Part shown: piece by piece, positions 1 through 28,962 of the stretch
How positions within the stretch are numbered: the stretch's first letter is position 1
Layout: every line of letters begins with the position of its first letter
Origin: a virus
Strand: one strand, 5' to 3'
Length of the DNA stretch: 64,000 nucleotides
Virus record (IMG/VR): IMGVR_UViG_3300045988_096244
Made by a program: the position numbers and the translations under genes
The notes under the pieces: model-generated
Seen by the model: the letters and a program-made list of their open reading frames with translations, nothing else
Told to the model about the DNA's origin: nothing
Databases searched by the model: none

Positions 1-912
1 TTCGATACGTTGAAAGAGCATATCCCACTCAGTATCAAAACTCTCGGAGTGGCAATTACCAAAGAAGATTACGAGGCAATAGCTATGCTTATCGACGGTG
101 TGGATAAAGCCTACTGTAACTACATTTGTGGTAAATATGTAGAGATATACATTACCCCAGATGGAGGTTCCGAAGCAAGCACTGAGCTTATCAACAATGT
201 AAAGCAGAGGATGGAATCTTCTAAGGTACTTACTACCAGGGTAAGTGTATATTCTACACATGCTGCCAAGATATACCTGTCAGCAACTATAACCGGCCGG
301 AAGTCTTTCAAGTCAATAGATATAAGCAATCAAGTGAAGAAAGCTTTACTGGATGCCTATAACTATCAGAACTCTGATATCAACAAACCGGTAAGACAGT
401 CTGACCTGTATGCTCTTATGGATAATCAACCCATGGTTGACTTCCTAACTATAACTGAGTTGTACTTACTGCCTTATCCGATAGCTATAAATATCAACTC
501 ACAAAATACGGAGGAGATAGTATCGGTACCCGCTCTAAACATAACCTATTTCAAGATGCTGTCATTTGCTACAGCAACTCCTGAAACAGGTTATGAGAAC
601 TGTTACATTAAAACAGTAATCGAGGATGGTAATGCTTTCTATCGGATATATGCTAACAAGGACCTTTCAGGAAATGCTTTGTACACTGGCCAGTATGGTA
701 AACCTCTTGAGGTATCCCTGACCAAGTCGAAATTCAGCTTAACCATCAACTTACCGGTTGAGAATGCAAACTATGAAAATGGGACCGTATATCAACTAAC
801 TACACAACCAATGGGTAGTGGAGGAAAGCTGGTAGACCTTATCCCTCATAATTACAATATCCCAACTATCAGTTCGGATAACATAACTCTTACAATCAAT
901 GAAGTGGTTTAA
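1..912 (+). CDS. baseplate J-like protein, C-terminal part (5' end outside window)
   Basis: The frame of track ORF 10..912 stays open back to nt 1. The pattern TRVSVYSTHAAKIYLSATITGRKSF...VKKALLDAYNY...RQSDLYALM resembles the C-terminal half of gpJ/gp6-type baseplate proteins. A gpI-like gene follows with a 14-nt overlap. Confidence 0.5.
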   Translation, partial: FDTLKEHIPLSIKTLGVAITKEDYEAIAMLIDGVDKAYCNYICGKYVEIYITPDGGSEASTELINNVKQRMESSKVLTTRVSVYSTHAAKIYLSATITGRKSFKSIDISNQVKKALLDAYNYQNSDINKPVRQSDLYALMDNQPMVDFLTITELYLLPYPIAININSQNTEEIVSVPALNITYFKMLSFATATPETGYENCYIKTVIEDGNAFYRIYANKDLSGNALYTGQYGKPLEVSLTKSKFSLTINLPVENANYENGTVYQLTTQPMGSGGKLVDLIPHNYNIPTISSDNITLTINEVV

Positions 913-1795: not shown

Positions 1796-2432
1796 TAGAC
1801 CTCTAATCTCATTTCTATTCTTAACTGCTCAAGAAGACCCTAAGTTGGACCATGCAGTTCAGTCGCTAACCAAATCTTCTATCGAGTTAGCTGAAGCAGT
1901 CTCCAACTACGGAGCTCTAAAAGTAATCTTCGGTATCTTCATGGTATTGGTCCTTGTAATGGTAACGGTGTTTATATACACTATCTGGAACCTAAACGAG
2001 AAGATATCTATAGTATCTGAATCTTCACAACAGGTAGAGGAGTTCTTCGACGGGGCCACTGATTCTACGGTGGGTATAACCGAGGCTCAAATACTGATTC
2101 GCAGGGAGTTCAATTGTTTGGGCCATATATTAAAGTATGCCATACTACGAATAAGATTCGAGAACCATATAGACAACAAGGAGTCTACAATAAAGAAAGT
2201 GGAAAGCTTAGTAAACAATGAATATTCTGAGCTATACGGACTACTTTCTAACTTCACTTGTAATGGTAAATCTCTCTCAAATATCTTTGAGCCTCAGGAT
2301 AACGAGGCAATAAAAGATTTGGTAATAGAACAGATATACATACCTAAGGACCAGTTCTCCATTTCAAACATGGACCAATCTGTAAGTATGTATCTCAACG
2401 GATTAAAACTAATGTACCTTAAAAAATTATAA
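1782..2432 (+). CDS. hypothetical membrane protein (holin-like role possible)
   Basis: One strongly hydrophobic segment, ALKVIFGIFMVLVLVMVTVFIYTIW. It lies immediately upstream of the amidase gene. The function is a positional guess only. Confidence 0.35.
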   Translation: MYMLSRPLISFLFLTAQEDPKLDHAVQSLTKSSIELAEAVSNYGALKVIFGIFMVLVLVMVTVFIYTIWNLNEKISIVSESSQQVEEFFDGATDSTVGITEAQILIRREFNCLGHILKYAILRIRFENHIDNKESTIKKVESLVNNEYSELYGLLSNFTCNGKSLSNIFEPQDNEAIKDLVIEQIYIPKDQFSISNMDQSVSMYLNGLKLMYLKKL

Positions 2433-2434
2433 CT

Positions 2435-3061
2435 ATGGCACGAAGATTATTGCCTATTATCGACTTTGCTCATGGGTCTGATGTAGCAGGAAAACAATCT
2501 CCAGACGGTAGACATAAAGAATATCTCTGGAGTCGTAAAGTGGGAAAAGCTTTGGCAGAGCGTCTCGAGCAAGAGGGATTCGAGGTAGCTTTCACTAATA
2601 CCGGGGACACCGAAATCGGGCTGTCTAGAAGAAAAGAAATTGCAAACAAATTAGATACTCCCCGAGGGGGTGCAAAGTTTCTGATTTCACTCCATAACAA
2701 TGCTGCAGGTATGGGGAATGAGTGGTGCGCTGCAAGGGGTTTTGAAATATATACCACTAAAGGCCAAACTCGTTCGGATTTATTTGCCACGGTGATATTC
2801 GAACAGTTACAGGAAGACTTCCCAATCACCGACGGTTATAAGCATAGGACAGACCCATCTGATGGAGATCCTGACAAGGAAGCTAACTTCACTGTTCTCA
2901 TGGGTAATAACTATTGGGGAGTACTTCTCGAGTGGTTATTCCAGGATAATCCAGATGATGTGGCATTACTCGAAGATGAGATTGTAAACCGGAAATTGGT
3001 AGAATCTCTCACCAAAGCCCTCATCTTCATCGATGAAAATCTCGACAAATTAAAATTGTAA
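2435..3061 (+). CDS. N-acetylmuramoyl-L-alanine amidase (Amidase_3-type endolysin)
   Basis: IDFAHGSD, LISLHNNA, GFEIYT and ANFTVL are by-eye hallmarks of MurNAc-LAA (Amidase_3) cell-wall amidases. Confidence 0.8.
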   Translation: MARRLLPIIDFAHGSDVAGKQSPDGRHKEYLWSRKVGKALAERLEQEGFEVAFTNTGDTEIGLSRRKEIANKLDTPRGGAKFLISLHNNAAGMGNEWCAARGFEIYTTKGQTRSDLFATVIFEQLQEDFPITDGYKHRTDPSDGDPDKEANFTVLMGNNYWGVLLEWLFQDNPDDVALLEDEIVNRKLVESLTKALIFIDENLDKLKL

Positions 3062-3064
3062 GCC

Positions 3065-4879
3065 ATGGCACAGAAGAATGAAACCGAAGTTGTAAATGGT
3101 GTAGTACAACCAAGGTTCTATCAGGTGTACGGTGACTTGATAGAGTCTAAAGAGGTTATGGAACCTCTTGCTATAATGGGGGGTACAGGACCTATTTGTG
3201 GCTTCGACTGGGTAGATACTACCCAACAGAACATAACCATAACCAGTATCTTCAAAAGGTCCGGTACTATGCCTTCGGGGATAGGCAATATCTTAGGCAA
3301 AGCCAGGAGAGTATTTCTTTCTAACAAGGATAACACTGCCGGCCAGGTATTCAATGCCTATACTACTCCAGACGGCTTATGTCATATAGCCCCTGACACT
3401 CTTACTTTCACAAGTGTAAGACCTGATGGGGGTTGGCCAAGCTTAACTAATCCTCAGAAGTTGGTAGCTTTTGCAGTAAAAGCGTCCCATACTTATCGTC
3501 AAGATGGTAGTGAGAATCCACCGAGCATATCCAATTTTGGATGTGGGTGGATAACTTTCGACAATGCCTATGGATTGGAGGAAATACTTTCTTGGGGGTA
3601 TGGAAGAATGCTAAGTCTGTTAGAAGACTCTAACATACCTTTCAATAAAGATACAGACACTCTCATAGGAATATACTTGGTAGGTTGGAGACCCGAATGG
3701 AACCGTGATGAAGTAAGCCTTAGGTATAAGGATATCATGGCATCACTGAACTACACTCTTTGCTTAGTACCCTACAATGGTCAGTTCCCGGTAAAACCCT
3801 ATGGACTCAATCCTCTTGATTTACTTGACCTGAAGAGTCGAGTTAAGGCCCTGGAGGAGAGTACGGTTCCTACTGATATAAGTGTATTGACTCGGTACTT
3901 AAACACTCAGATGAACAGTCAGGGTAAGGGTATAGAGATAGAGTACTCCATTAGTAATAGAGATGACTATGAAGTATACACGTTTAGCAAATTGGTTATC
4001 AACGGGTGTGTATTGGCTAAACCTTCAGCTCCAGTAAGCAAACAGATATCATATCAATGGAGAGAAGGTAGTCCTTGTATATGTATATATACTACAGCAT
4101 CTGTATTAACTAACGCTTCTCTCACTCCAGCTCAATGGGGTATAAAGAGTGGAAATACTAATGTGGATTACAATGCAGAATTTTGGGATGGCTCATTTAA
4201 TAAGTTAGGTATGAACCTACCAAGCAATGCTACTTTGGTAGCAGTATTCGAAATAAGTTCCCCAGACGTAAATGCTTTAGTACTCCCGGAACATGCCTAC
4301 AGCCTTCTCAACAATGAAAAGGTAGATGGTCTTACAAGGGCCATACTCGGATTGTTTAGGTATACCTTCGAGAAAGGTAATACTGGTTTAGATACCAGCG
4401 TAGAGCAAACTACCTCAGGAAGCGGTGGTACTCGGTCAAGGTTAACGGTAGATGCTCATTACCATAATGGAGTGGCAATATTTGACTTAACCGAGATTAT
4501 GTTCTCCGGATGTCCGTCCTTTAAAGATGTGGCTGTGAACGTGACCGACCTGTTAACTAATAAAGATTCAAGGTGGGGTCCTATCTTAACTCAAATAGCT
4601 AAAAAGTATCACTCGGGTACTTATGGATATGGGCCATATATGCAGAAGTATGGTGATACAGCTTACTACATTGAAATCTATCCAAACCTCTTTACTACAA
4701 GTGATCTGGAATCGTTCAGGGTAACGGTATCCGGAAACAATGGTACTTCTGGCAGTGATTTAAGGGCTTATAAAGTACAACTTACCTTTGTAGTGGGCGA
4801 TGTTGGAAAGGATACTCTTACCAATGATGCGCGCCTACTTTTGGCATGTCTTAACAATCCTTTCAAATCGAATTATTAA
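3065..4879 (+). CDS. hypothetical large virion protein (possible tail fibre/receptor-binding protein)
   Basis: A 604-aa ORF 4 nt after the amidase, at the distal end of the baseplate cluster. No motif recognised; the function is positional inference. Confidence 0.35.
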   Translation: MAQKNETEVVNGVVQPRFYQVYGDLIESKEVMEPLAIMGGTGPICGFDWVDTTQQNITITSIFKRSGTMPSGIGNILGKARRVFLSNKDNTAGQVFNAYTTPDGLCHIAPDTLTFTSVRPDGGWPSLTNPQKLVAFAVKASHTYRQDGSENPPSISNFGCGWITFDNAYGLEEILSWGYGRMLSLLEDSNIPFNKDTDTLIGIYLVGWRPEWNRDEVSLRYKDIMASLNYTLCLVPYNGQFPVKPYGLNPLDLLDLKSRVKALEESTVPTDISVLTRYLNTQMNSQGKGIEIEYSISNRDDYEVYTFSKLVINGCVLAKPSAPVSKQISYQWREGSPCICIYTTASVLTNASLTPAQWGIKSGNTNVDYNAEFWDGSFNKLGMNLPSNATLVAVFEISSPDVNALVLPEHAYSLLNNEKVDGLTRAILGLFRYTFEKGNTGLDTSVEQTTSGSGGTRSRLTVDAHYHNGVAIFDLTEIMFSGCPSFKDVAVNVTDLLTNKDSRWGPILTQIAKKYHSGTYGYGPYMQKYGDTAYYIEIYPNLFTTSDLESFRVTVSGNNGTSGSDLRAYKVQLTFVVGDVGKDTLTNDARLLLACLNNPFKSNY

Positions 4880-4948
4880 ACTGAACCCTAGTTGAGTTGG
4901 TTAAGTGGGGTTGGAGTGAGGTTAGAGATAACCTTGCTCTGGCCTTTT

Positions 4949-5596
4949 TCATTGTTTAAGGTCTATGGCAGCTTGTTCTAAGGTCTTCTGTATAGTCTTT
5001 CGCATTTGAGAGAACATGTTGACTGCAAACTTATCCCGGGGCAACTCAAAGTAATCAATCAAGTGAAGGATAGATAACTTACCGTGGGAATCCTTGATAC
5101 GAGCCTCAAACCATTTGGGAGGTTCTAATTGTATTTGCATCACCAGGTATTCATCCGGAGTAAGATGCTCTTTCATATACTTATGGAATCTTTGAGATTG
5201 CTCTTCTTTAATTCGAGTCTCTTCGGAATCATCCAATAACTCTTTATTATTATCGAATAGAACTTCGAAAGAAGTCAACTCTTGATTGAACTCAGCCTGT
5301 TTGGTATAAGCATTCCGAAGCAACTTACTTTTATAAGTTTGCAAGGAAGATAAGAGAGTTGCCTTTAACCTCTCTTCATCATATTCGTCTTGGTATTTAT
5401 TAAATACATACAAGAACTTATCCCAGAAAAAAGAGTTAATTATATCGGGAGTAAGATTGAATCTTCTGGAATCCACTCCCCTTGTCAGCCTACGGATTAA
5501 AGGTTTGCAGGTTTTATACAACCTATTAAACAAATCCTCATCATAGGGTTTTAATTCTGTTAATCTGTGTAGTTCACTTCCGTTGTTGCCTTTCAT
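4949..5596 (-). CDS. RNA polymerase sigma-factor-like protein
   Basis: Start moved to ATG 5596 (MKGNNG...) because the 22 upstream codons of the track ORF cover its own TAtaTTTG box. By eye, the region-2-like segment FNRLYKTCKPLIRRLTRG...DIINSFFWDKFLYVF and a C-terminal HTH-like segment resemble ECF-type sigma factors. Confidence 0.4.
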   Translation of the reverse strand: MKGNNGSELHRLTELKPYDEDLFNRLYKTCKPLIRRLTRGVDSRRFNLTPDIINSFFWDKFLYVFNKYQDEYDEERLKATLLSSLQTYKSKLLRNAYTKQAEFNQELTSFEVLFDNNKELLDDSEETRIKEEQSQRFHKYMKEHLTPDEYLVMQIQLEPPKWFEARIKDSHGKLSILHLIDYFELPRDKFAVNMFSQMRKTIQKTLEQAAIDLKQ

Positions 5597-17259: not shown

Positions 17260-17333
<74 letters not shown>

Positions 17334-17425
17334 CAAGATGAATCTTTACTTTGCGCTGTGGACCGCGAGTCCTGATTCACCCCGGGTATCAGACTGTAGG
17401 GATATAGACTGATACCCATTTTTAT

Positions 17426-17500
17426 ACGGAAGTAGCACAGTCCGGTTAGTGTACTTGCTTTGGGAGCAAGGGGTCGCAGGTTCGAATCCTGTCTTCCGTA
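17426..17500 (+). tRNA. tRNA-Pro (anticodon TGG)
   Basis: Acceptor acggaag/cttccgt, anticodon stem cttgc/gcaag with 7-nt loop ttTGGga, T arm gcaggttcgaatcctgt. Confidence 0.85.
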
Positions 17501-17655
17501 CAAGGGCTATATGCTGGGTCATAACCGGAGATACGACCTCCAGCTAGCAATGGGCAATAACCCGGTACGAGATACCAAAAGCTCATAATTAAAGTCGAAG
17601 GCTATAGCTCTAGGAGATGAGCGAAGAACAGTACCTCATCTCCCCTTTTGTAAAG

Positions 17656-17738
17656 GCTCGGATGGAGAAATAGGTAAACTCATCAGATTTAAGCTCTGAC
17701 GGTCATTGACCTTGCGGGTTCGATTCCCGCTCCGAGTA
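17656..17738 (+). tRNA. tRNA-Leu (anticodon TAA), class II with long variable arm
   Basis: Acceptor gctcgga/tccgagt (G1-U72 wobble), anticodon stem tcaga/tctga with loop ttTAAgc, variable arm ggtcattgacc, T arm gcgggttcgattcccgc. Confidence 0.8.
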
Positions 17739-17753
17739 CAAAATACCCTTAAC

Positions 17754-18089
17754 ATGACAATCACATTCAAAGATTACCCTTGCGGTACAATTTCATTAGG
17801 TACTTCAGTAACAATAATACCTAATTCATATCAGATTAAATCAATCCAGGATATGGAAGATATAATCAACCGTTCTAGAGAAGAAGTAAATAAAAGTCCA
17901 GTATTCCATACGTTTGCAATAAATAAAAGAACTACAGCTGGTATGATTATTGAATGGCGAGCCCATAATATGCTATATGCACTGCATATAAAAAGGAATA
18001 GGACTCGAACGGTTGACCTGGATATAAATGAACCATGGTACCGTAAAGTAGGATATTTAATATTATCAACACTATATCTAAGATGGTAG
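17754..18089 (+). CDS. hypothetical protein
   Basis: Track ORF 17706..18089 trimmed to ATG 17754 (MTITFKDYP...), because the upstream codons overlap tRNA-Leu. Confidence 0.4.
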   Translation: MTITFKDYPCGTISLGTSVTIIPNSYQIKSIQDMEDIINRSREEVNKSPVFHTFAINKRTTAGMIIEWRAHNMLYALHIKRNRTRTVDLDINEPWYRKVGYLILSTLYLRW

Positions 18090-19063: not shown

Positions 19064-20632
19064 ATGGAGTCAAGATATGCTATACTAAAGAGTTTCTCAC
19101 AAGTCAAGCGGCTTGTGAAAGCTTGTTTAAGAACTGGCCTAGCTTCCGTCGACTTCGAGACAAATGCTGAAGGTATCTATAACAAATCTTTCAAACCAAC
19201 CATCCTATCAGTAACTTTTCAGGTAGGTTCTGGTGTATCAATCCCTTTATGTCATCATGAATATAACAACCCTCATTGGAAACGTTGGTTAAAGTATTTT
19301 GGTAGGCATGTGATTGAAAATCCTAAAATAACTAAAGTAGGATGGAATCTGAAGTTTGACCTTCAGATATTCGAGTTATTTGGGATATATGTTAGAGGTA
19401 CTGTTCTGGACGGAATGCTTATGAAGTATCTCCTAAATGAGGAGAAACCTAATGACCTGAAATCAATGGTTAGAAGGTATCTACCAGAACACGGAGATTA
19501 CGAAAAGTCGGATAAGTTTGATAAGATACCATGGGACAAGAAACCATTGGAACCCTTATGCAAATACGGTTGCCAGGATACGGATTATACCTTAAGATTA
19601 TCTATGTTCTTTGAGAGCAAGTTAATTGAGATAGGTATGTATCCATTATTTAGGCATTTGATAATGCCAGCATCCAGGGTACTCCAACATGCAGAGAAAA
19701 CTGGGTTATACCTTGATAGGGAATTCAATCAGGAATTGCTTAAATCCTACAAGCCAAAGATTGACCAAGCAACTGCTAATTGCTTGAATCTTCCCAGAGT
19801 AAAGAAATTCTCTAGATGGCTTACCGAACAGAGAATAAGCAAATACCTGGAGTCCATAGAAAGTGAACTTGAAGATATGGATTATAGAGACCCTGCAAAT
19901 AAGAGGAAGATAGCAAGTAGGGAACAAAAGATATCCAATATCAGGGCTGGAGTATTTACAACTAAGAAAGAACTTGAATTAACTCGAGAAGTAAACTTGG
20001 GCAGTCCTATTGATTTACCTTTATTATTGTACTCTAAAAAGGGATTCAACTTCCCGGTTATCAAGTATACTAAGGATAAGAAAACAAATAGGGATACTGA
20101 TAAACCCAGTACCGATGAAGACACATTGGTAGAACTTCGGTTAACGGTTAAAGACCCTGAAAGTCCCAAAGCAATCTTCCTGGATAATCTTCTCGAGTTG
20201 AGAGGGTTAAAGAAAATGTATACAACCTATATTGAGGGATGGCATGATAAAGTTCAGGATGATGACAGGATTCACGGGCAATTCAAAATCATTGGTACTA
20301 CTTCTGGCCGTTTAAGTTGCATAAGTGGAGATACTAAAGTATTAACCCAGTATGGAGAAATACCCATTATAGATATTAAAGATTGGATTGGTGAAGGGTT
20401 GTGTGCCATGACTAAAGAGGGGTGGCAATTAATAGAAAACTTCATATATAAGGGTGTTAATGATATGTATGAAGTAACACTTGAGGATGGTACTTCTATT
20501 CAATGTACTTTAGACCATAAGTTTATAACCAATCAGGGGACTAAAAGATTAGGGGAAATTTACAATAAATACCGAAATACTATTGATTCTAAAGTTAAAC
20601 TTTTAAGATATGTCCCAGACCACGAACAATAG
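19064..20632 (+). CDS. family-A DNA polymerase, N-terminal fragment (3'-5' exonuclease + N-part of the polymerase domain) fused to the split-intein N half
   Basis: Exo I motif VDFETN. The sequence runs to ...IIGTTSGRLS, then Cys at 20318 starts CISGDTKVL...TLDHKF (Hint blocks A and B). The frame stops 104 codons after that Cys. Confidence 0.8.
   Translation: MESRYAILKSFSQVKRLVKACLRTGLASVDFETNAEGIYNKSFKPTILSVTFQVGSGVSIPLCHHEYNNPHWKRWLKYFGRHVIENPKITKVGWNLKFDLQIFELFGIYVRGTVLDGMLMKYLLNEEKPNDLKSMVRRYLPEHGDYEKSDKFDKIPWDKKPLEPLCKYGCQDTDYTLRLSMFFESKLIEIGMYPLFRHLIMPASRVLQHAEKTGLYLDREFNQELLKSYKPKIDQATANCLNLPRVKKFSRWLTEQRISKYLESIESELEDMDYRDPANKRKIASREQKISNIRAGVFTTKKELELTREVNLGSPIDLPLLLYSKKGFNFPVIKYTKDKKTNRDTDKPSTDEDTLVELRLTVKDPESPKAIFLDNLLELRGLKKMYTTYIEGWHDKVQDDDRIHGQFKIIGTTSGRLSCISGDTKVLTQYGEIPIIDIKDWIGEGLCAMTKEGWQLIENFIYKGVNDMYEVTLEDGTSIQCTLDHKFITNQGTKRLGEIYNKYRNTIDSKVKLLRYVPDHEQ
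20318..20629 (+). mobile_element. split intein, N-terminal half (IntN, 104 aa)
   Basis: CISGDTKVLTQYGEIPIIDIKDW (block A) and CTLDHKFITNQG (block B, TxxH), terminated by the TAG at 20630. Confidence 0.75.
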
Positions 20633-21590
20633 GCAAAAGGTATTTGAAGATAAATCTACTAGGGGTCCAAGGAGAAAATTAAAGCTAATAATAGAGGATG
20701 GTAAAAGGTATATAAAGAAAGAAGATCTTTTACATTACTTCTTTCAAGAGAATTGGAATATAGAAGACTTCAATTATCATTTTGGTATTGGCCATAGAAT
20801 AGTGAGAGGTTCTCTATATAAATGGTTTACTAGAGAGGAGATAGAGGAATCCCATAGAAAGAAGATTGCTAATAAACAAAGGGGTAGTAACAATTCTAAT
20901 AGGGTTAATTGGTATAAGCCTCGTAAGCTTATACCTTTATTGGATTTAGAGGAAGCTATTAAAAAATCTACTTGTAAACGGGATTTGAAAGAAAGATTAC
21001 AATTAACTACTTGGGAATTGTCTTCTATACAGCAATTCTATAATTTTAAGCTCCCTAATAAATCTTCTTTACTCAATACTAAACTCCAGTATTCTCTTTC
21101 TAAAGAAGATGTAAAACTCTTATGTAAAGTTATTACAGGAATGCAATTGGAAGACCTATTTTTCTCTAATACTCCTCAAGCTATCTACAAAATAGATTGT
21201 CTTGTTTGGGAACTTAAGAAGATTAACCGCTCTCTTAGAAGAGCTTTTAGGAAACCTATAGTAGCTCAGGGTATTAAGTTTTCTACTAATTTGATAGAAT
21301 ATAAATTCCACAAAGCTTTAGAAAAAATGGGTATAGAACATGAAATACAGTATTACATACCCGAACATAATATACACCTAGACTTTTTAATACAAGGTCA
21401 CTACAACTTAGAATTAGATGGAAATTTACATGAAAAAGAAGCAGATATGGATAGAGACTATGTTCTCAAATCCCTTGGCTATAAAGTTATACGATTAGAT
21501 TTAAAAACCCTTGGTATCACTAGATTTTCAAAAGAAAAGGAGGTAAGAAAATGTATAAAGAAGTTGGTATTACCCAAGTTAAATTCGTAG
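20610..21590 (+). CDS. free-standing Vsr/DUF559-like (PD-(D/E)XK) endonuclease lodged between the intein halves
   Basis: It is in a different phase from both polymerase fragments and overlaps them by 23 and 40 nt. By eye, the C-terminus IEHEIQYYIPEHNIHLDFLIQGHYNLELDGNLHEKEADMDRDYVLKSLGYKVIRLD matches the DUF559/Vsr pattern (..Df....vvE.DG..H....D..R...L...G..vlR). Confidence 0.65.
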   Translation: MSQTTNNRQKVFEDKSTRGPRRKLKLIIEDGKRYIKKEDLLHYFFQENWNIEDFNYHFGIGHRIVRGSLYKWFTREEIEESHRKKIANKQRGSNNSNRVNWYKPRKLIPLLDLEEAIKKSTCKRDLKERLQLTTWELSSIQQFYNFKLPNKSSLLNTKLQYSLSKEDVKLLCKVITGMQLEDLFFSNTPQAIYKIDCLVWELKKINRSLRRAFRKPIVAQGIKFSTNLIEYKFHKALEKMGIEHEIQYYIPEHNIHLDFLIQGHYNLELDGNLHEKEADMDRDYVLKSLGYKVIRLDLKTLGITRFSKEKEVRKCIKKLVLPKLNS

Positions 21591-21664
21591 GTAGAAATGG
21601 GGTATATGATTTATCAGTTATGAACTGTCATCAATTTGTGGCTAATAATATCTTAAATCACAAT
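21551..21664 (+). mobile_element. split intein, C-terminal half (IntC, 38 aa)
   Basis: MYKEVGITQVKFVGRNGVYDLSVMNCHQFVANNILNHN ends in the H-N splice junction and is followed by Ser. It has its own ATG, preceded by AAGGAGGT at 21537-21544. Confidence 0.75.
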
Positions 21665-22699
21665 TCTAGTGAACCTAACCTTCAGCAAATACCTAAAACC
21701 TCCGTAGATGCTAACATAAAGAAACAGTTAGTAGCTCCTAAAGGAAAGTTATATATGGCACTTGACTACTCTCAGGCAGAGTTAAGAATCATGGCTCACC
21801 TTTCCGGGGATGAAACTTATCTCGAGGCTTTTGCAAAGGGTCAGGACCCTCACCTTGCTATTGCAGCAAAGAAGTATGGTGTATCGTACGATGAAGCAAA
21901 CCAAGCTTATAGTGACGAGCAACATCCAGATTACAAGGTTTGGAAGAACAGGAGAAAGCAGGCAAAGCAGATATGTTTTGGTATTATCTATGGTATTCAA
22001 AAGAAACTACTTGCAGTTAAACTGTCTGACCCAAAAGCGGGTATCATTGTAACACCCGATGAAGCTCAACAGCAATTGAATGAGTTCTTCCAGGAACACC
22101 CCAAGATTAAGAAGTTCATGATTAACCAGGAGAAGGTACTGATTGAGCATGGATATATTAAATCTCTGTTTGGTAGGAAGAGAAGGTTACCACAAGTATA
22201 TTCTGACAATGAGCAAGAGGCAGCATACGCAGTAAGATTATCAGTTAACATGCCATGTCAATCAGCTGCATCTGATATGACTCTGTTTGCATCCATACTC
22301 AATTATTGGAAAATACGACAAGGTATACTTCCACCACTGCTTGAAACCTGTACAGTACATGATGCCGTTTATTACTTGGCAGACCCTGAGTATATAAATA
22401 TATTCACGGTGTACAATATATGGGAGACTTGCCGTAACCCAAGTACAAAAGAGTATTTCAAATTTGAAATCAACGATGTAGATATGTCAATGGACTTTAC
22501 TATCGGACGTTCGATGGCTGAGGAGTTGCCATATATACCTGGATATGACTATAGAAAAATGCTTCAACCCGATTTTAATGTGGAGAAGTATTTGGAAGAA
22601 CACCGTAAGTGGAAAGACTTATCCATCAAGGAGTTCCCCAAGAAGTTCCCCGAATACTTTAAGAAGGATTACTCATGGAGAAAGGAAAAGGTGGTATAG
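21551..22699 (+). CDS. family-A DNA polymerase, C-terminal fragment (IntC + palm/fingers)
   Basis: After IntC come SSEPNLQQIP, LDYSQAELRIMAHLSGD (motif A), RRKQAKQICFGIIYG (motif B) and VHDAVYY (motif C). It is in the same phase as 19064..20632. Confidence 0.8.
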   Translation: MYKEVGITQVKFVGRNGVYDLSVMNCHQFVANNILNHNSSEPNLQQIPKTSVDANIKKQLVAPKGKLYMALDYSQAELRIMAHLSGDETYLEAFAKGQDPHLAIAAKKYGVSYDEANQAYSDEQHPDYKVWKNRRKQAKQICFGIIYGIQKKLLAVKLSDPKAGIIVTPDEAQQQLNEFFQEHPKIKKFMINQEKVLIEHGYIKSLFGRKRRLPQVYSDNEQEAAYAVRLSVNMPCQSAASDMTLFASILNYWKIRQGILPPLLETCTVHDAVYYLADPEYINIFTVYNIWETCRNPSTKEYFKFEINDVDMSMDFTIGRSMAEELPYIPGYDYRKMLQPDFNVEKYLEEHRKWKDLSIKEFPKKFPEYFKKDYSWRKEKVV

Positions 22700-23136
22700 T
22701 ACGTCTATCCCAGATTAAGAAAAATACTCTGAAGATTCTGTTTCAAGGTAAAACCTATGAGATTGATTTAGACCAGGAACTCATGATTGATGAGAACCTG
22801 GTCAATCAGTCTTTACGTAGAAGTCCATCCAATTACGCTTTATTGGTAATGGTAAGGGATAGGCTTATATATAAAAGGGATAAACTTGAAAAGGCCAAGG
22901 ACCAAGCTTATAGCAAGGCATGGCTTTACTACAAGGAGTCAGGTAACATCAACAACGATGCTGCAGCACATAAAGCTGAAAATAACCAAGCCTATCAAGG
23001 GGCTTTGAAAAGGTATATGAAGGCTGAGTATAATGCAAGTAAGTTTATAAGCATCTGCAAAGCCTATGAATCAAGGGAAAATATATTAAGAACCATAAGT
23101 GCGAACATAAGGGTACAAGATGGATTTAAGAGATAA
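22675..23136 (+). CDS. hypothetical protein
   Basis: Track ORF overlapping the polymerase 3' end by 25 nt. No motif recognised. Confidence 0.4.
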   Translation: MEKGKGGIVRLSQIKKNTLKILFQGKTYEIDLDQELMIDENLVNQSLRRSPSNYALLVMVRDRLIYKRDKLEKAKDQAYSKAWLYYKESGNINNDAAAHKAENNQAYQGALKRYMKAEYNASKFISICKAYESRENILRTISANIRVQDGFKR

Positions 23137-23660
23137 CCATCCCTATTTAATAGGGTATCATATTTCTAATGTAGGTAAAATATACAGTAGAGTAAAGGGT
23201 TATTGGAGAGAATTAACTCCTCGTATCAATAGAGAGGGATATCTTAGGATAAAATTAAATGGTAAGCAATACTCAATACATAAATTAGTTGCTGAAGCTT
23301 ATATACCTAATTCGGAAAATAAGCCCCTGTGTATGTCATAAGGATAACAATAAGCTAAACAATTCGGTTGATAACTTGTATTGGGGAACACAAAAGGAGA
23401 ACTTAGAACAAATGATTAAAGACGGTAGGAGTTTGAAAGGTAGAAGAAACCCTATGTGGAAAAATCATTATAATTCTGGTTATGGTAGATATGGAGAAAA
23501 AGCAACAGCTAGTAAACTATCAAACAAAGATAGAATAAGTATAGTTAAAAGTCTAAACTCGGGTATAAGTATAGATACTTTATCCAAAAGATACAAAGTA
23601 TCAAGAGCCTGTATTAGAAGTCAAATAAGAATAGTGTCAAACTTACGTAAACAACAATAA
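23120..23660 (+). pseudogene. HNH homing endonuclease paralog 2, split by a +1 frameshift
   Basis: ORFs 23120..23341 and 23289..23660 together rebuild ...HKLVAEAYIPNSENKP|CVCHKDNNKLNNSVDNLYWGTQKEN. The break is a CCCC run (23324-23327) where paralog 1 has CCC. Confidence 0.7.
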
Positions 23661-27003: not shown

Positions 27004-27649
27004 ATATCAAATTATGTTTACAGGTGTTTCCGGAGTAGGGAAAACAACCATTGCAAAGGAAGTATCGGAAATGTTGAAGATACCCTTTATATCTGGTTCA
27101 TACTCTGACCTGGTACCAGAAACAAAAGACATGCCCCACGCTGACATGATTCAGCAGGATGCAAAGACAGTATTCATGCAGGATATGCAGGTACTCAATC
27201 TTCGTAACAAAGCCTTTCGAGGGGAGGATAACTTTGTAACTGACAGGTCATACTTTGACTCTGCAGCATACTTCATCAATAAGTTATCTCATAGGTTGGC
27301 AGAGTGTGACCTGGACCATGCTATAGACTTATGCAAAATGCTACTTGGTCAACAGTGTACTCACTTGATATTCATACCATTCTCCTCAAGCTTTTTCAAG
27401 GACTGGGTAACCGAGGATAACGGGAAACGAGTACTGTCAAAGTACTATCAGTTCCAAGTTTCTCAGGTTATGTATGGATTACTTGACCTGTGGGGGTACA
27501 AGCCAGATTCCAAAGTAATGCAAGTCGTGGATGGAATACCAAGTACTGGTACTCTGGAAATAATGGGTTACAAGGTAAAGGTTCTCATATTAGATGAGAT
27601 GAACTACGAAAAGAGAAAGCATCTAATAAGGAAATTTCTTCAGTTATGA
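26990..27649 (+). CDS. P-loop NTPase, nucleotide-kinase-like
   Basis: An N-terminal Walker A (FTGVSGVGKTTIAKEV) at the very start of a roughly 220-aa protein, as in (d)NMP kinases. Specificity unknown. Confidence 0.4.
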   Translation: MYNGKYQIMFTGVSGVGKTTIAKEVSEMLKIPFISGSYSDLVPETKDMPHADMIQQDAKTVFMQDMQVLNLRNKAFRGEDNFVTDRSYFDSAAYFINKLSHRLAECDLDHAIDLCKMLLGQQCTHLIFIPFSSSFFKDWVTEDNGKRVLSKYYQFQVSQVMYGLLDLWGYKPDSKVMQVVDGIPSTGTLEIMGYKVKVLILDEMNYEKRKHLIRKFLQL

Positions 27650-28962
27650 AGGTAGATAAGGTGGATAATATTAAAGACTTCCCGGGATATTATATTTCTC
27701 GGGAAGGTTTTTTATATAGTAGGTATGATAAGGTAGGCCGTTTAACAGACACTTATAAGAGAAATAAGACATATGTAAGGTCTAACGGTTATGTACAAGT
27801 GGTATTGAAAATACGAAAGGAGAATAGATTACGTAGAGTATATATACATAGGTTAGTAGCTGAAACTTATATCCCTAATCCATATAATAATCCCTGTGTA
27901 GGACATAGGGATAATAATAGAGAGAATAACTCTGTAGAGAACCTATATTGGTGTACTCATAAGGAGAATACTCAACAGTGTATAGATGACGGTCGTATGA
28001 ACTTTAGGCCTAAACTACAATTCTTATTATTTTCAGACTTACACATATCAGACTATAAGAAGTTTCCAAGTAGAGAGCATAGTGGATTTAGAGTATTGGA
28101 TATTATATCTCAACGATGTGAAAAGCTTGGAGTACCCGCAGTACATGTGGGTGATTTGATACATAGACCTGAGGTTATAAGCAATGAGTTATTGTACAGG
28201 TTAATAAAAGAGTTTAATCAATTATCTCATCGTAAGTGGAAATTATATTCTATATCGGGTAATCATTGTATAAGTACTCGTAGTGAAATAGGCCATAAAC
28301 CAATTTCATGGGATAGAACTTTATCTATGATATACCCATGGTTTAAGTGTATAGATTACAAAAGAGTTCATGTAGATAAATGTTATATATATGGAATACC
28401 TTATATAGACCATAATATAGGTTTATCTAAATACATATCAGAACTAAAGCTTACTGGCAGTAAAAGAAGTAAACACATACTCCTATTACATACTGACTAT
28501 CCTGGGGCAAAGGATACGGACGGTACAGTAGTAAACAGTGTAGAGAACCTGAATATAAATTCTATATCAAAGTTTGACTTAACTCTTTGTGGGCATATAC
28601 ACAAACCCCAGAGGTTAGGTAAGAAGGTGTATATGGTAGGTTCACCATATCAACAACGTAGAACTGATAAGAATTGTGAATTGGGCTACTGGGAAGTATA
28701 CTCAGATATGTCACTTAAATTTATACCGTTAAATGATTTTCCTAAATTTGTGGATGTATCATCAGAGGATGAAATTAAAGATGACGGCAATTATTATACT
28801 GTTGTTGCTAGCAAGTCTCGGGTTGTGGCGGTGGAAGATACCCCGCAAATAACTCGGGAACTTACTAAGAAATCCATGGTACGCAGATATATGAAAGCCA
28901 AAGGCATAAAAGACAAAGAAAAGAAGGCCACATTATTAAAGGTAATAAAGGAGGCAGAATGA
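27646..28962 (+). CDS. sbcD: SbcD/Mre11 nuclease with an in-frame N-terminal truncated HNH_3 endonuclease module (paralog 3)
   Basis: aa 1-117 carry HRLVAETYIPNPYNNPCVGHRDNNRENNSVENLYWCTHKEN. From the internal ATG 27997 (MNFRPKLQFLLFSDLHISD) the calcineurin-like motifs follow: DLH, HVGDLIH, SGNHC, LLLHTD, CGHIHKP. Confidence 0.7.
   Translation: MKVDKVDNIKDFPGYYISREGFLYSRYDKVGRLTDTYKRNKTYVRSNGYVQVVLKIRKENRLRRVYIHRLVAETYIPNPYNNPCVGHRDNNRENNSVENLYWCTHKENTQQCIDDGRMNFRPKLQFLLFSDLHISDYKKFPSREHSGFRVLDIISQRCEKLGVPAVHVGDLIHRPEVISNELLYRLIKEFNQLSHRKWKLYSISGNHCISTRSEIGHKPISWDRTLSMIYPWFKCIDYKRVHVDKCYIYGIPYIDHNIGLSKYISELKLTGSKRSKHILLLHTDYPGAKDTDGTVVNSVENLNINSISKFDLTLCGHIHKPQRLGKKVYMVGSPYQQRRTDKNCELGYWEVYSDMSLKFIPLNDFPKFVDVSSEDEIKDDGNYYTVVASKSRVVAVEDTPQITRELTKKSMVRRYMKAKGIKDKEKKATLLKVIKEAE

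What the first reader, a model, noticed from the sequence alone, without database searches (positions are those of the whole stretch)
19064..22699. Essential DNA polymerase is a fractured gene: split-intein halves flank a free-standing Vsr/DUF559-like endonuclease ORF
- The Pol I-type ORF 19064..20632 reads ...IIGTTSGRLS, then a Cys at 20318 opens a Hint N-half (CISGDTKVL..., TLDHKF). The frame stops 104 codons later.
- A second ORF, 21551..22699, is in the same phase. It has its own ATG behind a canonical AAGGAGGT (21537-21544), a rare feature in this genome.
- That second ORF encodes 38 aa ending ...VANNILHN-type H-N junction (VANNILNHN), then SSEPNLQQIP, DYSQAELR (motif A), KQICFGIIYG (motif B) and VHDA (motif C).
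- Removing both intein halves gives GRLS|SSEPNLQQIP, the canonical Pol I sequence. The predicted spliced product is 418 + 344 aa.
- Between the halves lies a 326-aa ORF in another phase, overlapping both by 23 and 40 nt. Its C-terminus looks like a Vsr/DUF559 PD-(D/E)XK nuclease.
- This is the 'fractured gene' layout reported from metagenomes (split intein plus a free-standing Vsr-like homing endonuclease). Here it sits in the only replicative polymerase visible in the window, so replication would depend on protein trans-splicing.
Basis: partly seen in the sequence, partly recalled or inferred. Interest (0 to 1): 0.85.

Follow-up and report, generated by a model that had tools for sequence, protein, structure and literature searches.

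The report
Split-intein fractured phage DNA polymerase
A human-gut phage carries its Pol I-type DNA polymerase as two genes, each ending or starting with half of a self-splicing intein, separated by a mobile endonuclease gene; this is a real and mobile example of the known "fractured gene" layout in a host enzyme where I found no earlier report of it.

Summary
ORF1 (19064-20632) is 418 aa of PolA plus a 104-aa N-intein. ORF2 (20610-21590, +1 frame) is a 326-aa Vsr-like/DUF559 endonuclease. ORF3 (21551-22699) is a 38-aa C-intein plus 344 aa of PolA.

- **Not an artefact.** The polymerase frame has 41 stops across the gap. The same 522/326/382-aa layout appears in at least 8 independently assembled metagenomes. 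Four diverged element types and one very distant phage keep the same anatomy.
- **Splice product exists in nature.** Uninterrupted 762-aa polymerases 98-99% identical to the predicted product are found in sister phages.
- **Under selection.** All parts show dN/dS of 0.05-0.39.
- **Mobile.** Differences between occupied and empty alleles cluster around the insertion point (64 of 70 within ±300 nt), which is a co-conversion tract.
- **Endonuclease family.** The best PDB structural match is I-Bth0305I, prototype of the EDxHD homing endonucleases first found in fractured genes.

The layout itself has been known since Dassa et al. 2009. PolA as host, the gut-phage setting and the population evidence for homing appear new. 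Trans-splicing and endonuclease activity are inferred, not shown. Verdict: new member of a known kind, moderate interest.

The parts
19064..20317 (+). N-extein: PolA 3'-5' exonuclease domain and the first part of the polymerase domain (418 aa), ending ...IIGTTSGRLS.
   Evidence: PF01612 scores 2.7e-19 at aa 7-187. PF00476 matches aa 304-419 and stops at profile position 123. phrog_17 DNA polymerase scores 4.9e-45. The segment is 92% identical to the N part of the uninterrupted L001 allele.
20318..20632 (+). N-terminal split-intein half (IntN, 104 aa plus stop): Cys1 at 20318-20320, block B T64-x-x-H67 at 20507-20518, stop TAG at 20630-20632.
   Evidence: TIGR01445 scores 37.7 bits against a cut-off of 24.5. 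Fused to IntC, it aligns end to end with the DnaB, Npu DnaE and gp41-1 mini-inteins in the PDB (8.8e-10 to 4e-6). Cys1 and TLDH are conserved in 4 diverged types (TLNH in L021). dN/dS is 0.22-0.39.
20610..21590 (+). Free-standing homing endonuclease gene (326 aa) in the +1 frame. It overlaps IntN by 23 nt and IntC by 40 nt. The conserved N-terminal putative DNA-binding region is aa 16-145 (20655-21044). The Vsr-like/EDxHD nuclease domain is about aa 225-300 (21282-21509).
   Evidence: DUF559 scores 22.8 bits against a cut-off of 20.6. Residues E230, D258, E268, D270, H274 and D283 are invariant in 22 homologues. The AF2 model has pLDDT 83. The top PDB structural hit is 3r3p, the I-Bth0305I catalytic domain (prob 1.0, E 8e-3, TM 0.59-0.64 on the target). 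BFVD hits are DUF559, Vsr and homing endonucleases. dN/dS is 0.12-0.26. JGI names it 'very-short-patch-repair endonuclease'.
21537..21544 (+). AAGGAGGT Shine-Dalgarno-like sequence 6 nt upstream of the ORF3 ATG. It lies inside the endonuclease codons K-E-V.
   Evidence: Sequence read. Only 3 of 57 ORFs have a 5-mer SD. The motif is present in the window and L018 types and absent in the L015 and L011 types, so it is optional.
21551..21664 (+). C-terminal split-intein half (IntC, 38 aa) with its own ATG. It ends H37-N38 (21659-21664).
   Evidence: It aligns with the C-terminal blocks of the DnaB mini-intein 4o1r (VFDLTVPGLHNFVANNIIVHN). PF14890 matches profile positions 124-155 (18.8 bits, below the cut-off). 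The 38-aa length, the M[YF]KE start and the terminal HN are conserved in 5 element types. dN/dS is 0.17-0.34.
21665..22699 (+). C-extein: the rest of the PolA polymerase domain (344 aa). It starts at Ser+1 (SSEPNLQQIP) and carries motif A DYSQAELR, motif B KQICFGIIYG and motif C VHDA.
   Evidence: PF00476 scores 6.7e-52 and resumes at profile position 123. NF004397 DNA polymerase I scores 2.8e-48.
20566..20646 (+). Possible RNA hairpin around the endonuclease start codon (uncertain).
   Evidence: MFE is -14 kcal/mol with z = -2.76. Three of four element types fold better than shuffles (z -2.5 to -3.2), but there is no shared consensus structure (RNAalifold -0.3 kcal/mol).

Best explanation
This is a 'fractured gene'. 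A composite mobile element sits inside the conserved TGR(L/F)S-SS-xPNLQ motif of the phage's family A DNA polymerase. The element is a class-1 intein split at the usual endonuclease-insertion position, with a free-standing EDxHD/Vsr-like homing endonuclease gene in the gap.

Shown from sequence:
- Three separate ORFs exist, probably on one transcript, since no convincing internal promoter or terminator was found.
- ORF1 gives exonuclease plus the N part of the polymerase, fused to IntN.
- ORF3 gives IntC fused to the catalytic C part.
- ORF2 gives the endonuclease.

Inferred:
- IntN and IntC associate after translation, fold into one HINT domain and trans-splice. The path is an acyl shift at Cys1, trans-esterification to Ser+1, then cyclisation of Asn38. 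The result is a scarless 762-aa polymerase reading GRLS-SSEPNLQQIP.
- The endonuclease cuts intein-free polymerase alleles of co-infecting relatives near the insertion point. Recombinational repair then copies IntN, the endonuclease gene and IntC, together with a few hundred bases of flanking polymerase sequence, into the cut genome (homing).

The element is therefore a selfish passenger. The phage tolerates it because splicing restores the polymerase.
For: Anatomy and profile hits are.

- **Empty-site alleles.** MT836181.1 (L001) has an uninterrupted 764-aa polymerase with GRLSSSEPNLQQIP. Dozens of 762-aa alleles are 98-99% identical to the predicted spliced product. L020 has the same gene order without the element.
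- **Real, not an error.** At least 8 independent assemblies share the layout. There are 41 stops of all three kinds in the polymerase frame.
- **Persistence.** Four element types, with endonucleases 49-67% identical, all keep Cys1, TxxH, HN, Ser+1, IntN of 101-107 aa, IntC of 38 aa, the endonuclease in the +1 frame, and overlaps of 11-23 and 31-40 nt. A fifth, very distant element (endonuclease 28% identical) has the same anatomy in an unrelated phage's PolA.
- **Purifying selection.** dN/dS is 0.12-0.26 for the endonuclease, 0.22-0.39 for IntN, 0.17-0.34 for IntC and 0.05-0.13 for the exteins.
- **Mobility.** L015 (occupied) and L001 (empty) are 99% identical in the exteins, yet 64 of their 70 nucleotide differences lie within ±300 nt of the insertion point (Fisher p = 1e-31). 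For the window against L020, 30 of 75 differences lie in -170..+10 (p = 3e-15).
- **Decoupled divergence.** The window and L015 exteins are 84-91% identical, while their elements are 54-58% identical. The element has 29-33% G+C against 38-40% in the exteins.
- **Endonuclease family.** See, and Taylor et al. 2011 (PMC3239194).
- **Match to the published layout.** See Dassa et al. 2009 (PMC2677866).
- **Precedent.** Related fractured-gene split inteins and the split PolB intein of Aeromonas phages are active in trans-splicing (PMC11923092).
Against: - No experimental evidence exists for trans-splicing, for endonuclease activity or for its target site.
- IntC on its own scores below the curated cut-offs: PF14890 18.8 against 35.8 bits, and TIGR01443 E = 0.54.
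- The structural match to I-Bth0305I is top-ranked but statistically modest (E = 8e-3), and the sequence profile reaches only 3hrl (DUF559) at E = 0.047.
- dS is saturated in many pairwise comparisons, so several dN/dS values could not be computed.
- The single-sequence AF2 model of the fused intein was unusable (pLDDT 41).
- Clustered substitutions could in principle come from any recombination event near the site, not only endonuclease-initiated repair.
Confidence: 0.88

Rival explanations
1. The two polymerase fragments assemble non-covalently and work without splicing, with the intein halves acting only as dimerisation handles. This would resemble the Aeh1 NrdA gene split by mobE, or the split gp43 of some T4-like phages.
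For: Functional genes-in-pieces without splicing are documented in phages (discussed in PMC2677866, and in the abstract of PMC3045599). No splicing assay exists for this element.
Against: All splicing residues (Cys1, block B T-x-x-H, terminal H-N, Ser+1) are kept in five element types that have diverged to about 33-39% identity in the intein. That is hard to explain if only binding mattered. The break also lies inside the conserved TGRLS-S motif of the polymerase active-site region, so leaving 142 aa of intein there is unlikely to be tolerated (inference).
Confidence: 0.06
2. A sequencing or assembly artefact, or programmed frameshifting or stop-codon recoding, hides what is in fact one contiguous intein-endonuclease ORF.
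For: Gut phages are known to recode stop codons (PMC7886860). A 2025 preprint describes inteins whose endonuclease is in another frame (10.1101/2025.01.02.630785).
Against: The same three-ORF structure appears in at least 8 samples built with different assemblers. The polymerase frame has 41 stops of all three types across the gap. Two opposite frame changes would be needed. The Met start of the endonuclease and the M[YF]KE start of IntC are conserved in all types. The P0168 variant, which mutates the IntN stop, simply runs to the next stop 5 codons later.
Confidence: 0.02
3. The polymerase gene is a dead pseudogene disrupted by an endonuclease insertion, and the phage replicates with another polymerase.
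For: The window covers only 64 kb of a genome of about 78 kb, and not every ORF was screened.
Against: Extein dN/dS is 0.05-0.13 in occupied alleles. All PolA motifs are intact. The arrangement persists in diverged lineages. No other polymerase was found in the 20 other large ORFs screened or in the annotated neighbourhoods.
Confidence: 0.02

Closest known systems
Fractured genes of Dassa et al. 2009 (gp41-1, gp41-8, NrdJ-1, IMPDH-1, NrdA-2, DnaE-1..3; PMC2677866)
   Same: [quoted passage not shown] IntN is 104 aa (published range 88-105). IntC is 38 aa (33-54). The endonuclease 3' end overlaps the IntC ORF by 40 nt (6-69 bp). The endonuclease is Vsr-like. The split falls at the canonical endonuclease-insertion position.
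   Different: The host enzyme is a family A (Pol I-type) DNA polymerase, which is not among the eight published host types. The source is human-gut phage rather than marine or freshwater metagenomes. The endonuclease start overlaps the IntN ORF, so there is no 5' UTR, and the published conserved 5' hairpin and late-promoter motif were not recovered as a consensus. Complete genomes and matching empty alleles are available here, which gives direct evidence of co-conversion.
I-Bth0305I and the EDxHD homing endonuclease family (Taylor et al. 2011, PMC3239194; PDB 3r3p)
   Same: Both have a two-part architecture, with an N-terminal DNA-binding region and a C-terminal Vsr-like nuclease. 3r3p is the best structural match in the PDB. 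The invariant acidic and His residues (D258, E268, H274, D283, plus E230) have spacing consistent with Vsr D51, position 62, H69 and D97.
   Different: I-Bth0305I is encoded in a group I intron of recA, not between intein halves. Sequence identity is only 15-18%. No Pfam NUMOD hit was found in the N-terminal region, only a NUMOD3-like S-H-R-x-K-I-x-x-x-Q-x-G string seen by eye. Activity is untested.
Naturally split inteins in replicative polymerases: cyanobacterial DnaE (Npu/Ssp), Nanoarchaeum PolB, Aeromonas phage Aes123 PolB1 (PMC11923092)
   Same: A replicative polymerase must be rebuilt by protein trans-splicing. The fragments are about 100 aa and about 40 aa. The fused halves align with Npu DnaE (2keq, 4kl5) over their full length.
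   Different: The polymerase families differ (C and B against A here). The DnaE and Nanoarchaeum halves lie at distant loci with no endonuclease. Here the halves are adjacent with an intact endonuclease, and the element is polymorphic in the population.
Mobile group I introns with endonucleases in phage PolA genes (SPO1/SP82 I-HmuI/II; T7-like phage intron, Bonocora & Shub 2004, cited in PMC2677866)
   Same: Selfish endonuclease-driven elements target conserved motifs of phage family A polymerase genes and spread between co-infecting relatives.
   Different: Those elements are removed at the RNA level by intron splicing. Here removal is at the protein level and in trans. The SPO1/SP82 comparison rests on my own knowledge and was not tested here.

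Membership tests
Intein (HINT splicing domain, class 1) | An N-terminal splicing region with a Cys/Ser1 nucleophile and block B T-x-x-H | tested here: met
   TIGR01445 scores 37.7 bits against a cut-off of 24.5. Cys1 and T64-L-D-H67 are present and conserved in five element types.
Intein (HINT splicing domain, class 1) | C-terminal blocks F and G ending in His-Asn, followed by a Ser/Thr/Cys +1 nucleophile | tested here: met
   IntC ends ...NNILNHN|S. It aligns with blocks F and G of the DnaB mini-intein 4o1r. The curated profiles are below their cut-offs for IntC alone (PF14890 18.8 bits; TIGR01443 E = 0.54).
Intein (HINT splicing domain, class 1) | In-frame removal restores the uninterrupted host protein | tested here: met
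   The Pfam PolA profile position is 123 on both sides. The 762-aa product is 98-99% identical to natural 762-aa alleles.
Intein (HINT splicing domain, class 1) | Protein-splicing activity | not testable with these tools
   This needs co-expression and detection of the ligated product.
Naturally split intein | The two halves are encoded by separate ORFs with their own stop and start, split at the endonuclease-insertion position (about 100 aa plus about 40 aa) | tested here: met
   The halves are 104 aa and 38 aa. There are 41 stops between them. The Met of IntC is conserved. The layout is seen in at least 8 independent assemblies.
Naturally split intein | Opposite local charges on the interacting strands of IntN and IntC | tested here: inconclusive
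   IntN residues 40-75 carry a net charge of -2 to -4 and IntC carries 0 to +2 in the four types. The direction agrees with the IMPDH-1, NrdJ-1 and DnaE pattern, but no structural model was available to define the interface.
Fractured gene (Dassa et al. 2009) | A free-standing endonuclease gene lies between the two intein halves in the same locus and orientation | tested here: met
   ORF2 at 20610-21590 is on the + strand in the +1 frame. The same holds in all related loci.
Fractured gene (Dassa et al. 2009) | The endonuclease 3' end overlaps the downstream IntC ORF (6-69 bp) | tested here: met
   The overlap is 40 nt in the window and 22-40 nt in the other types.
Fractured gene (Dassa et al. 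2009) | An RNA hairpin, with or without a late-promoter motif, in the endonuclease 5' region (15 of 16 published loci) | tested here: inconclusive
   Individual folds have z-scores of -2.5 to -3.2 in 3 of 4 types. In L015 and L011 the stem covers the AUG. There is no consensus structure. A TATAAATA motif was not searched for.
EDxHD / Vsr-like homing endonucleases (DUF559 superfamily) | A C-terminal Vsr-like nuclease fold | tested here: met
   PF04480 scores 22.8 bits against a cut-off of 20.6. The Foldseek top PDB hit is 3r3p (prob 1.0, TM 0.59-0.64 on the target). BFVD hits are DUF559, Vsr and homing endonucleases.
EDxHD / Vsr-like homing endonucleases (DUF559 superfamily) | Conserved catalytic E, D, H and D residues | tested here: met
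   E230, D258, E268, D270, H274 and D283 are invariant in 22 sequences. They align with the D-F...E-x-D-G-x-x-H...R-D pattern of 3hrl. Assignment to individual I-Bth0305I residues is by spacing only.
EDxHD / Vsr-like homing endonucleases (DUF559 superfamily) | An N-terminal NUMOD/HTH-type DNA-binding region | tested here: inconclusive
   The N-terminal region aa 16-145 is strongly conserved and the model is helical. There is no Pfam NUMOD hit at E <= 1. A BFVD hit is named 'Nuclease associated modular domain 3'.
EDxHD / Vsr-like homing endonucleases (DUF559 superfamily) | Site-specific cleavage of the empty allele, and homing | not testable with these tools
   Indirect support only: presence/absence polymorphism and co-conversion-like tracts around the site.
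Family A DNA polymerase | A 3'-5' exonuclease domain plus polymerase motifs A, B and C | tested here: met
   PF01612 and PF00476 match. DYSQAELR, KQICFGIIYG and VHDA are present. Motif C has Ala where most PolA enzymes have Glu (HDE). This holds across the whole clade, including the empty alleles.

The most novel reading that the evidence does not exclude
This may be the first described family of naturally split inteins in family A DNA polymerases. It would be an ancient, still-mobile composite element (split intein plus a dedicated EDxHD endonuclease with a highly conserved DNA-binding domain) specialised on the TGR(L/F)SSS-PNLQ motif. It occurs in abundant human-gut phages and in at least one unrelated phage lineage. 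It coexists in populations with empty alleles and with a different, contiguous HNH intein 7 codons away. That would make it a natural system for studying homing, competition between inteins, and replication that depends on trans-splicing. It would also be a source of new Cys1/Ser+1 split inteins.
Probability: 0.55. Interest if true: 0.55.

Novelty: new member of a known kind. Interest (0 to 1): 0.5.

Why it matters
- **Scope of the layout.** Fractured genes were so far documented mainly from fragmentary marine metagenome reads. Here the layout is common and evolutionarily stable in complete genomes of about 78 kb from human-gut phages, and it affects the polymerase that copies the genome.
- **Evidence for how these elements spread.** Occupied and empty alleles exist in near-identical backgrounds, so the data give unusually clean sequence evidence: co-conversion tracts of about ±300-400 nt that the composite element spreads by homing. 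They also show three different intein insertion points within eight codons of one polymerase motif.
- **Annotation.** Gene callers currently label the pieces 'DNA polymerase I-like', 'very-short-patch-repair endonuclease' and 'hypothetical protein'. Phage polymerase surveys will therefore miscount or truncate these genes.
- **Protein engineering.** Five diverged IntN/IntC pairs with Ser+1 are new candidate split inteins.

Tried and rejected
- tblastn of the endonuclease against 50,697 GenBank phage records found nothing at 1e-5.
- phmmer of the endonuclease against PDB sequences gave only noise. The family profile reached only 3hrl at E = 0.047.
- The single-sequence AF2 model of the fused intein was unusable (pLDDT 41), so no fold search was run on it.
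- The consensus RNA hairpin at the endonuclease start was not supported.
- A terminator-like hairpin inside the endonuclease gene (20911-20935) did not come out as the MFE structure in a local refold. The comparison with other types failed on a script error, so it was dropped.
- The promoter scan found fewer sigma-70-like sites than shuffles and gave no evidence for a separate promoter for ORF3.
- An idea that the window's polymerase is a mosaic with a breakpoint at the insertion site (from P0187) was weak: 84% against 89% identity for the N and C parts. It was dropped.
- Literature searches for a PolA split intein or a fractured PolA found none. The library lacks most subscription journals, so absence there is not proof.
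- Stop-codon recoding was considered and rejected, because all three stop types occur in the gap.

Full report

- ORF1 (19064-20632, 522 aa) reads ...IIGTTSGRLS. A Cys codon at 20318 then opens 104 residues (CISGDTKVL...CTLDHKF...) that end at a TAG.
- ORF3 (21551-22699, 382 aa) is in the same phase. It begins with 38 residues ending ...VANNILNHN, then continues SSEPNLQQIP, DYSQAELR, KQICFGIIYG and VHDA.
- ORF2 (20610-21590, 326 aa) is in the +1 phase. It overlaps ORF1 by 23 nt and ORF3 by 40 nt.
- Across the gap the polymerase frame carries 41 stop codons: 27 TAA, 11 TAG and 3 TGA. No single indel and no stop-codon reassignment can make it continuous.

**2. Profile evidence.**

- The Pfam family A polymerase model matches ORF1 up to profile position 123 and resumes in ORF3 at position 123. 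The two pieces therefore abut without loss.
- The NCBIfam intein N-terminal model scores 37.7 bits (cut-off 24.5) on residues 419-489 of ORF1.
- IntC alone is too short to pass the curated cut-offs. Fused to IntN, however, the 142-aa sequence aligns end to end with solved mini-inteins and split inteins: DnaB 4o1r (8.8e-10), Npu DnaE 2keq/4kl5 (about 5e-7) and gp41-1 6qaz (4e-6). The break falls at the canonical split position.
- ORF2 passes the Pfam DUF559 threshold at residues 257-296.

**3. Not an artefact.** The exact ORF2 protein is indexed in 270 blocks of the public assembly collection. Eight loci were fetched from different samples and assemblers (L003-L010). All show the same 522/326/382(384)-aa layout on contigs of 63-80 kb. 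The neighbouring genes are thymidylate synthase, Cpn10, gp32, a RecA/UvsX-like protein and a 5'-3' exonuclease. The window also carries DnaB-like and other helicases, SbcCD, terminase, portal and a major head protein. This is a tailed phage of about 78 kb from the human gut. Its closest GenBank records, MT836181.1 and MT121964.1, come from human faeces.

**4. Empty-site alleles.**

- MT836181.1 (L001) has an uninterrupted 764-aa polymerase that reads ...IIGTTSGRLSSSEPNLQQIP... It is 88.7% identical to the predicted 762-aa spliced product and identical over the 59 residues around the junction.
- A search with the predicted product returned dozens of uninterrupted 762-aa proteins at 98-99% identity.
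- One of these, in L020, sits in the same gene order without the element.
- The predicted splice product therefore exists as a natural gene, and the element is polymorphic among near-identical phages.

**5. Persistence and selection.** Endonuclease homologues at 67%, 54% and 49% identity (loci L018, L015-17 and L011-14) all lie in the same arrangement. In each of them:

- IntN is 101-107 aa and IntC is 38 aa.
- Cys1, TLDH, the terminal HN and Ser+1 are present.
- The endonuclease is in the +1 frame, with overlaps of 11-23 and 31-40 nt.

Nei-Gojobori dN/dS is 0.12-0.26 for the endonuclease, 0.22-0.39 for IntN, 0.17-0.34 for IntC and 0.05-0.13 for the exteins. dS is saturated in the deepest comparisons.

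A deep profile search found a wider but small family with the same two-domain architecture. One distant member, P0216, has an endonuclease 28% identical to the window's. It also lies between two PolA halves (459/314/301 aa) in an unrelated phage, L021. That locus reads GRF|C...HN|SSSNPNLQN, one codon upstream of the window's site.

**6. Mobility.**

- L015 (occupied) and L001 (empty) are 99% identical in extein protein sequence. Yet 64 of their 70 nucleotide differences lie within ±300 nt of the insertion point (Fisher p = 1e-31).
- Between the window and L020, 30 of 75 differences lie in -170..+10 (p = 3e-15).
- Both occupied alleles share TCT for Ser+1, where the empty alleles have AGT.
- Element divergence is decoupled from host-gene divergence. 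The window and L015 exteins are 84-91% identical, while their elements are 54-58% identical.
- The element has lower G+C (0.29-0.33) than the exteins (0.38-0.40).

This is the pattern expected from endonuclease-initiated gene conversion with co-conversion of flanks.

**7. The endonuclease.**

- An alignment of 22 homologues shows invariant E230, D258-F259, E268-x-D270-G271, H274 and R282-D283. It also shows a remarkably conserved N-terminal region, residues 16-145.
- An AF2 model (pLDDT 83) has the I-Bth0305I catalytic domain (3r3p) as its best match in the whole PDB: probability 1.0, E = 8e-3, TM 0.59-0.64 on the target.
- BFVD matches are phage DUF559, Vsr and homing endonucleases.
- I-Bth0305I is the prototype of the EDxHD family, which was first recognised in fractured genes (PMC3239194).

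**8. Comparison with what is known.** Dassa et al. 2009 (PMC2677866) described 26 fractured loci in eight host enzymes: gp41 helicase, IMPDH, DnaE, NrdA, NrdJ, ligase, terminase and one unknown.

- Their ranges are IntN 88-105 aa, IntC 33-54 aa, and an overlap of 6-69 bp between the endonuclease and the IntC ORF. Half of their endonucleases were Vsr-like. The present locus meets each of these.
- Family A polymerase is not among their hosts. I found no later report of it in the searchable library.
- A 2025 preprint states that Vsr-like endonucleases with split inteins have not been reported since Dassa et al..
- Split inteins in other replicative polymerases are known and active: cyanobacterial DnaE and Aeromonas phage PolB. 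Dependence of replication on trans-splicing therefore has precedent.

**9.

- *The Shine-Dalgarno sequence.* It is genuine and unusual for this genome, where 3 of 57 ORFs have one. However, it lies in the endonuclease codons K-E-V and is absent from the L015 and L011 types. It is not an essential part of the design.
- *The 5' hairpin.* The hairpin reported for other fractured genes is not supported as a consensus here.
- *The only polymerase.* No other polymerase was found in the 20 other large ORFs screened, but the genome is not fully covered by the window.

**10. Verdict.** What is shown:

- the anatomy;
- its reproducibility across assemblies;
- purifying selection on all parts;
- presence/absence polymorphism;
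- conversion-like tracts around the insertion point.

What is inferred is protein trans-splicing and site-specific cleavage. It is a new member of a known kind, of moderate interest to intein and phage specialists.

Noticed in passing
window 55049-57382: The large terminase gene (777 aa) appears to carry a second, contiguous intein with an HNH endonuclease. Terminase N is aa 11-206 and terminase C is aa 573-727. HNH_3 matches aa 321-363 (49.5 bits). Intein_splicing matches aa 257-475 (27.8 bits, below the cut-off).
   Followed up: partly
window 27646-28962: The SbcD-like (Metallophos) ORF is 438 aa, with an HNH_3 domain (aa 65-109) fused in frame ahead of the phosphoesterase domain. The orthologue in L020 is 320 aa without it.
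   Followed up: partly
window 23120-23660: An HNH/NUMOD4 endonuclease gene is broken into two overlapping ORFs (73 and 123 aa). It is intact (179 aa) in L001 5200-5739, L004 and L020. L008 shows a similar break. This is a decaying free-standing homing endonuclease or a frameshift.
   Followed up: partly
L002 (MT121964.1) 2001-5279: A sister phage has a different, contiguous 328-aa intein (HNH_3, NUMOD4 and HTH; Intein_splicing 50.7 bits) in the same polymerase motif. It sits between G and TTSGRLS, 7 codons upstream of the window's site. With L021 this makes three insertion points within eight codons.
   Followed up: partly
L012 and L013, 8270 onward, compared with L011 and L014: The RecA/UvsX-like gene of related phages is polymorphic for a LAGLIDADG intein: 738 aa with it and 383 aa without.
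   Followed up: no
L001 4285-4779; L002 5269-5763; L007 and L010 8086-8580: An extra 164-aa HNH endonuclease gene lies directly downstream of the polymerase in several relatives but is absent from the window. The whole replication module is a hotspot for homing endonucleases.
   Followed up: no
window 22355-22366: Polymerase motif C reads VHDA, not the usual VHDE. The same holds in the empty alleles L001 and P0187 and in L002. The unrelated fractured PolA in L021 has VHDE.
   Followed up: no
window 17260-17739 and 17706-18089: There is a cluster of tRNA-Met, tRNA-Pro and tRNA-Leu(UAA). The listed ORF starting MTLRVRFPLRV begins inside tRNA-Leu and is probably not a gene. The same peptide-like string recurs in L001 and L002.
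   Followed up: no
whole window, + strand: Nearly all long ORFs are on the + strand (57 against 3). Only 3 of the 57 have a 5-mer Shine-Dalgarno sequence and the leaders are A/T-rich. This suggests a host with SD-independent initiation, such as Bacteroidota. That is an inference, and the host was not determined.
   Followed up: partly
protein P0168 (variant of ORF1): In some genomes the IntN stop TAG is TGG, and the ORF runs 5 codons further (...DHEQWAKGI). The exact IntN C-terminus is therefore not constrained.
   Followed up: no
window 3065-4879: A 604-aa ORF between a baseplate J-like gene and the DnaB-like helicase has no PHROGs or Pfam match.
   Followed up: no
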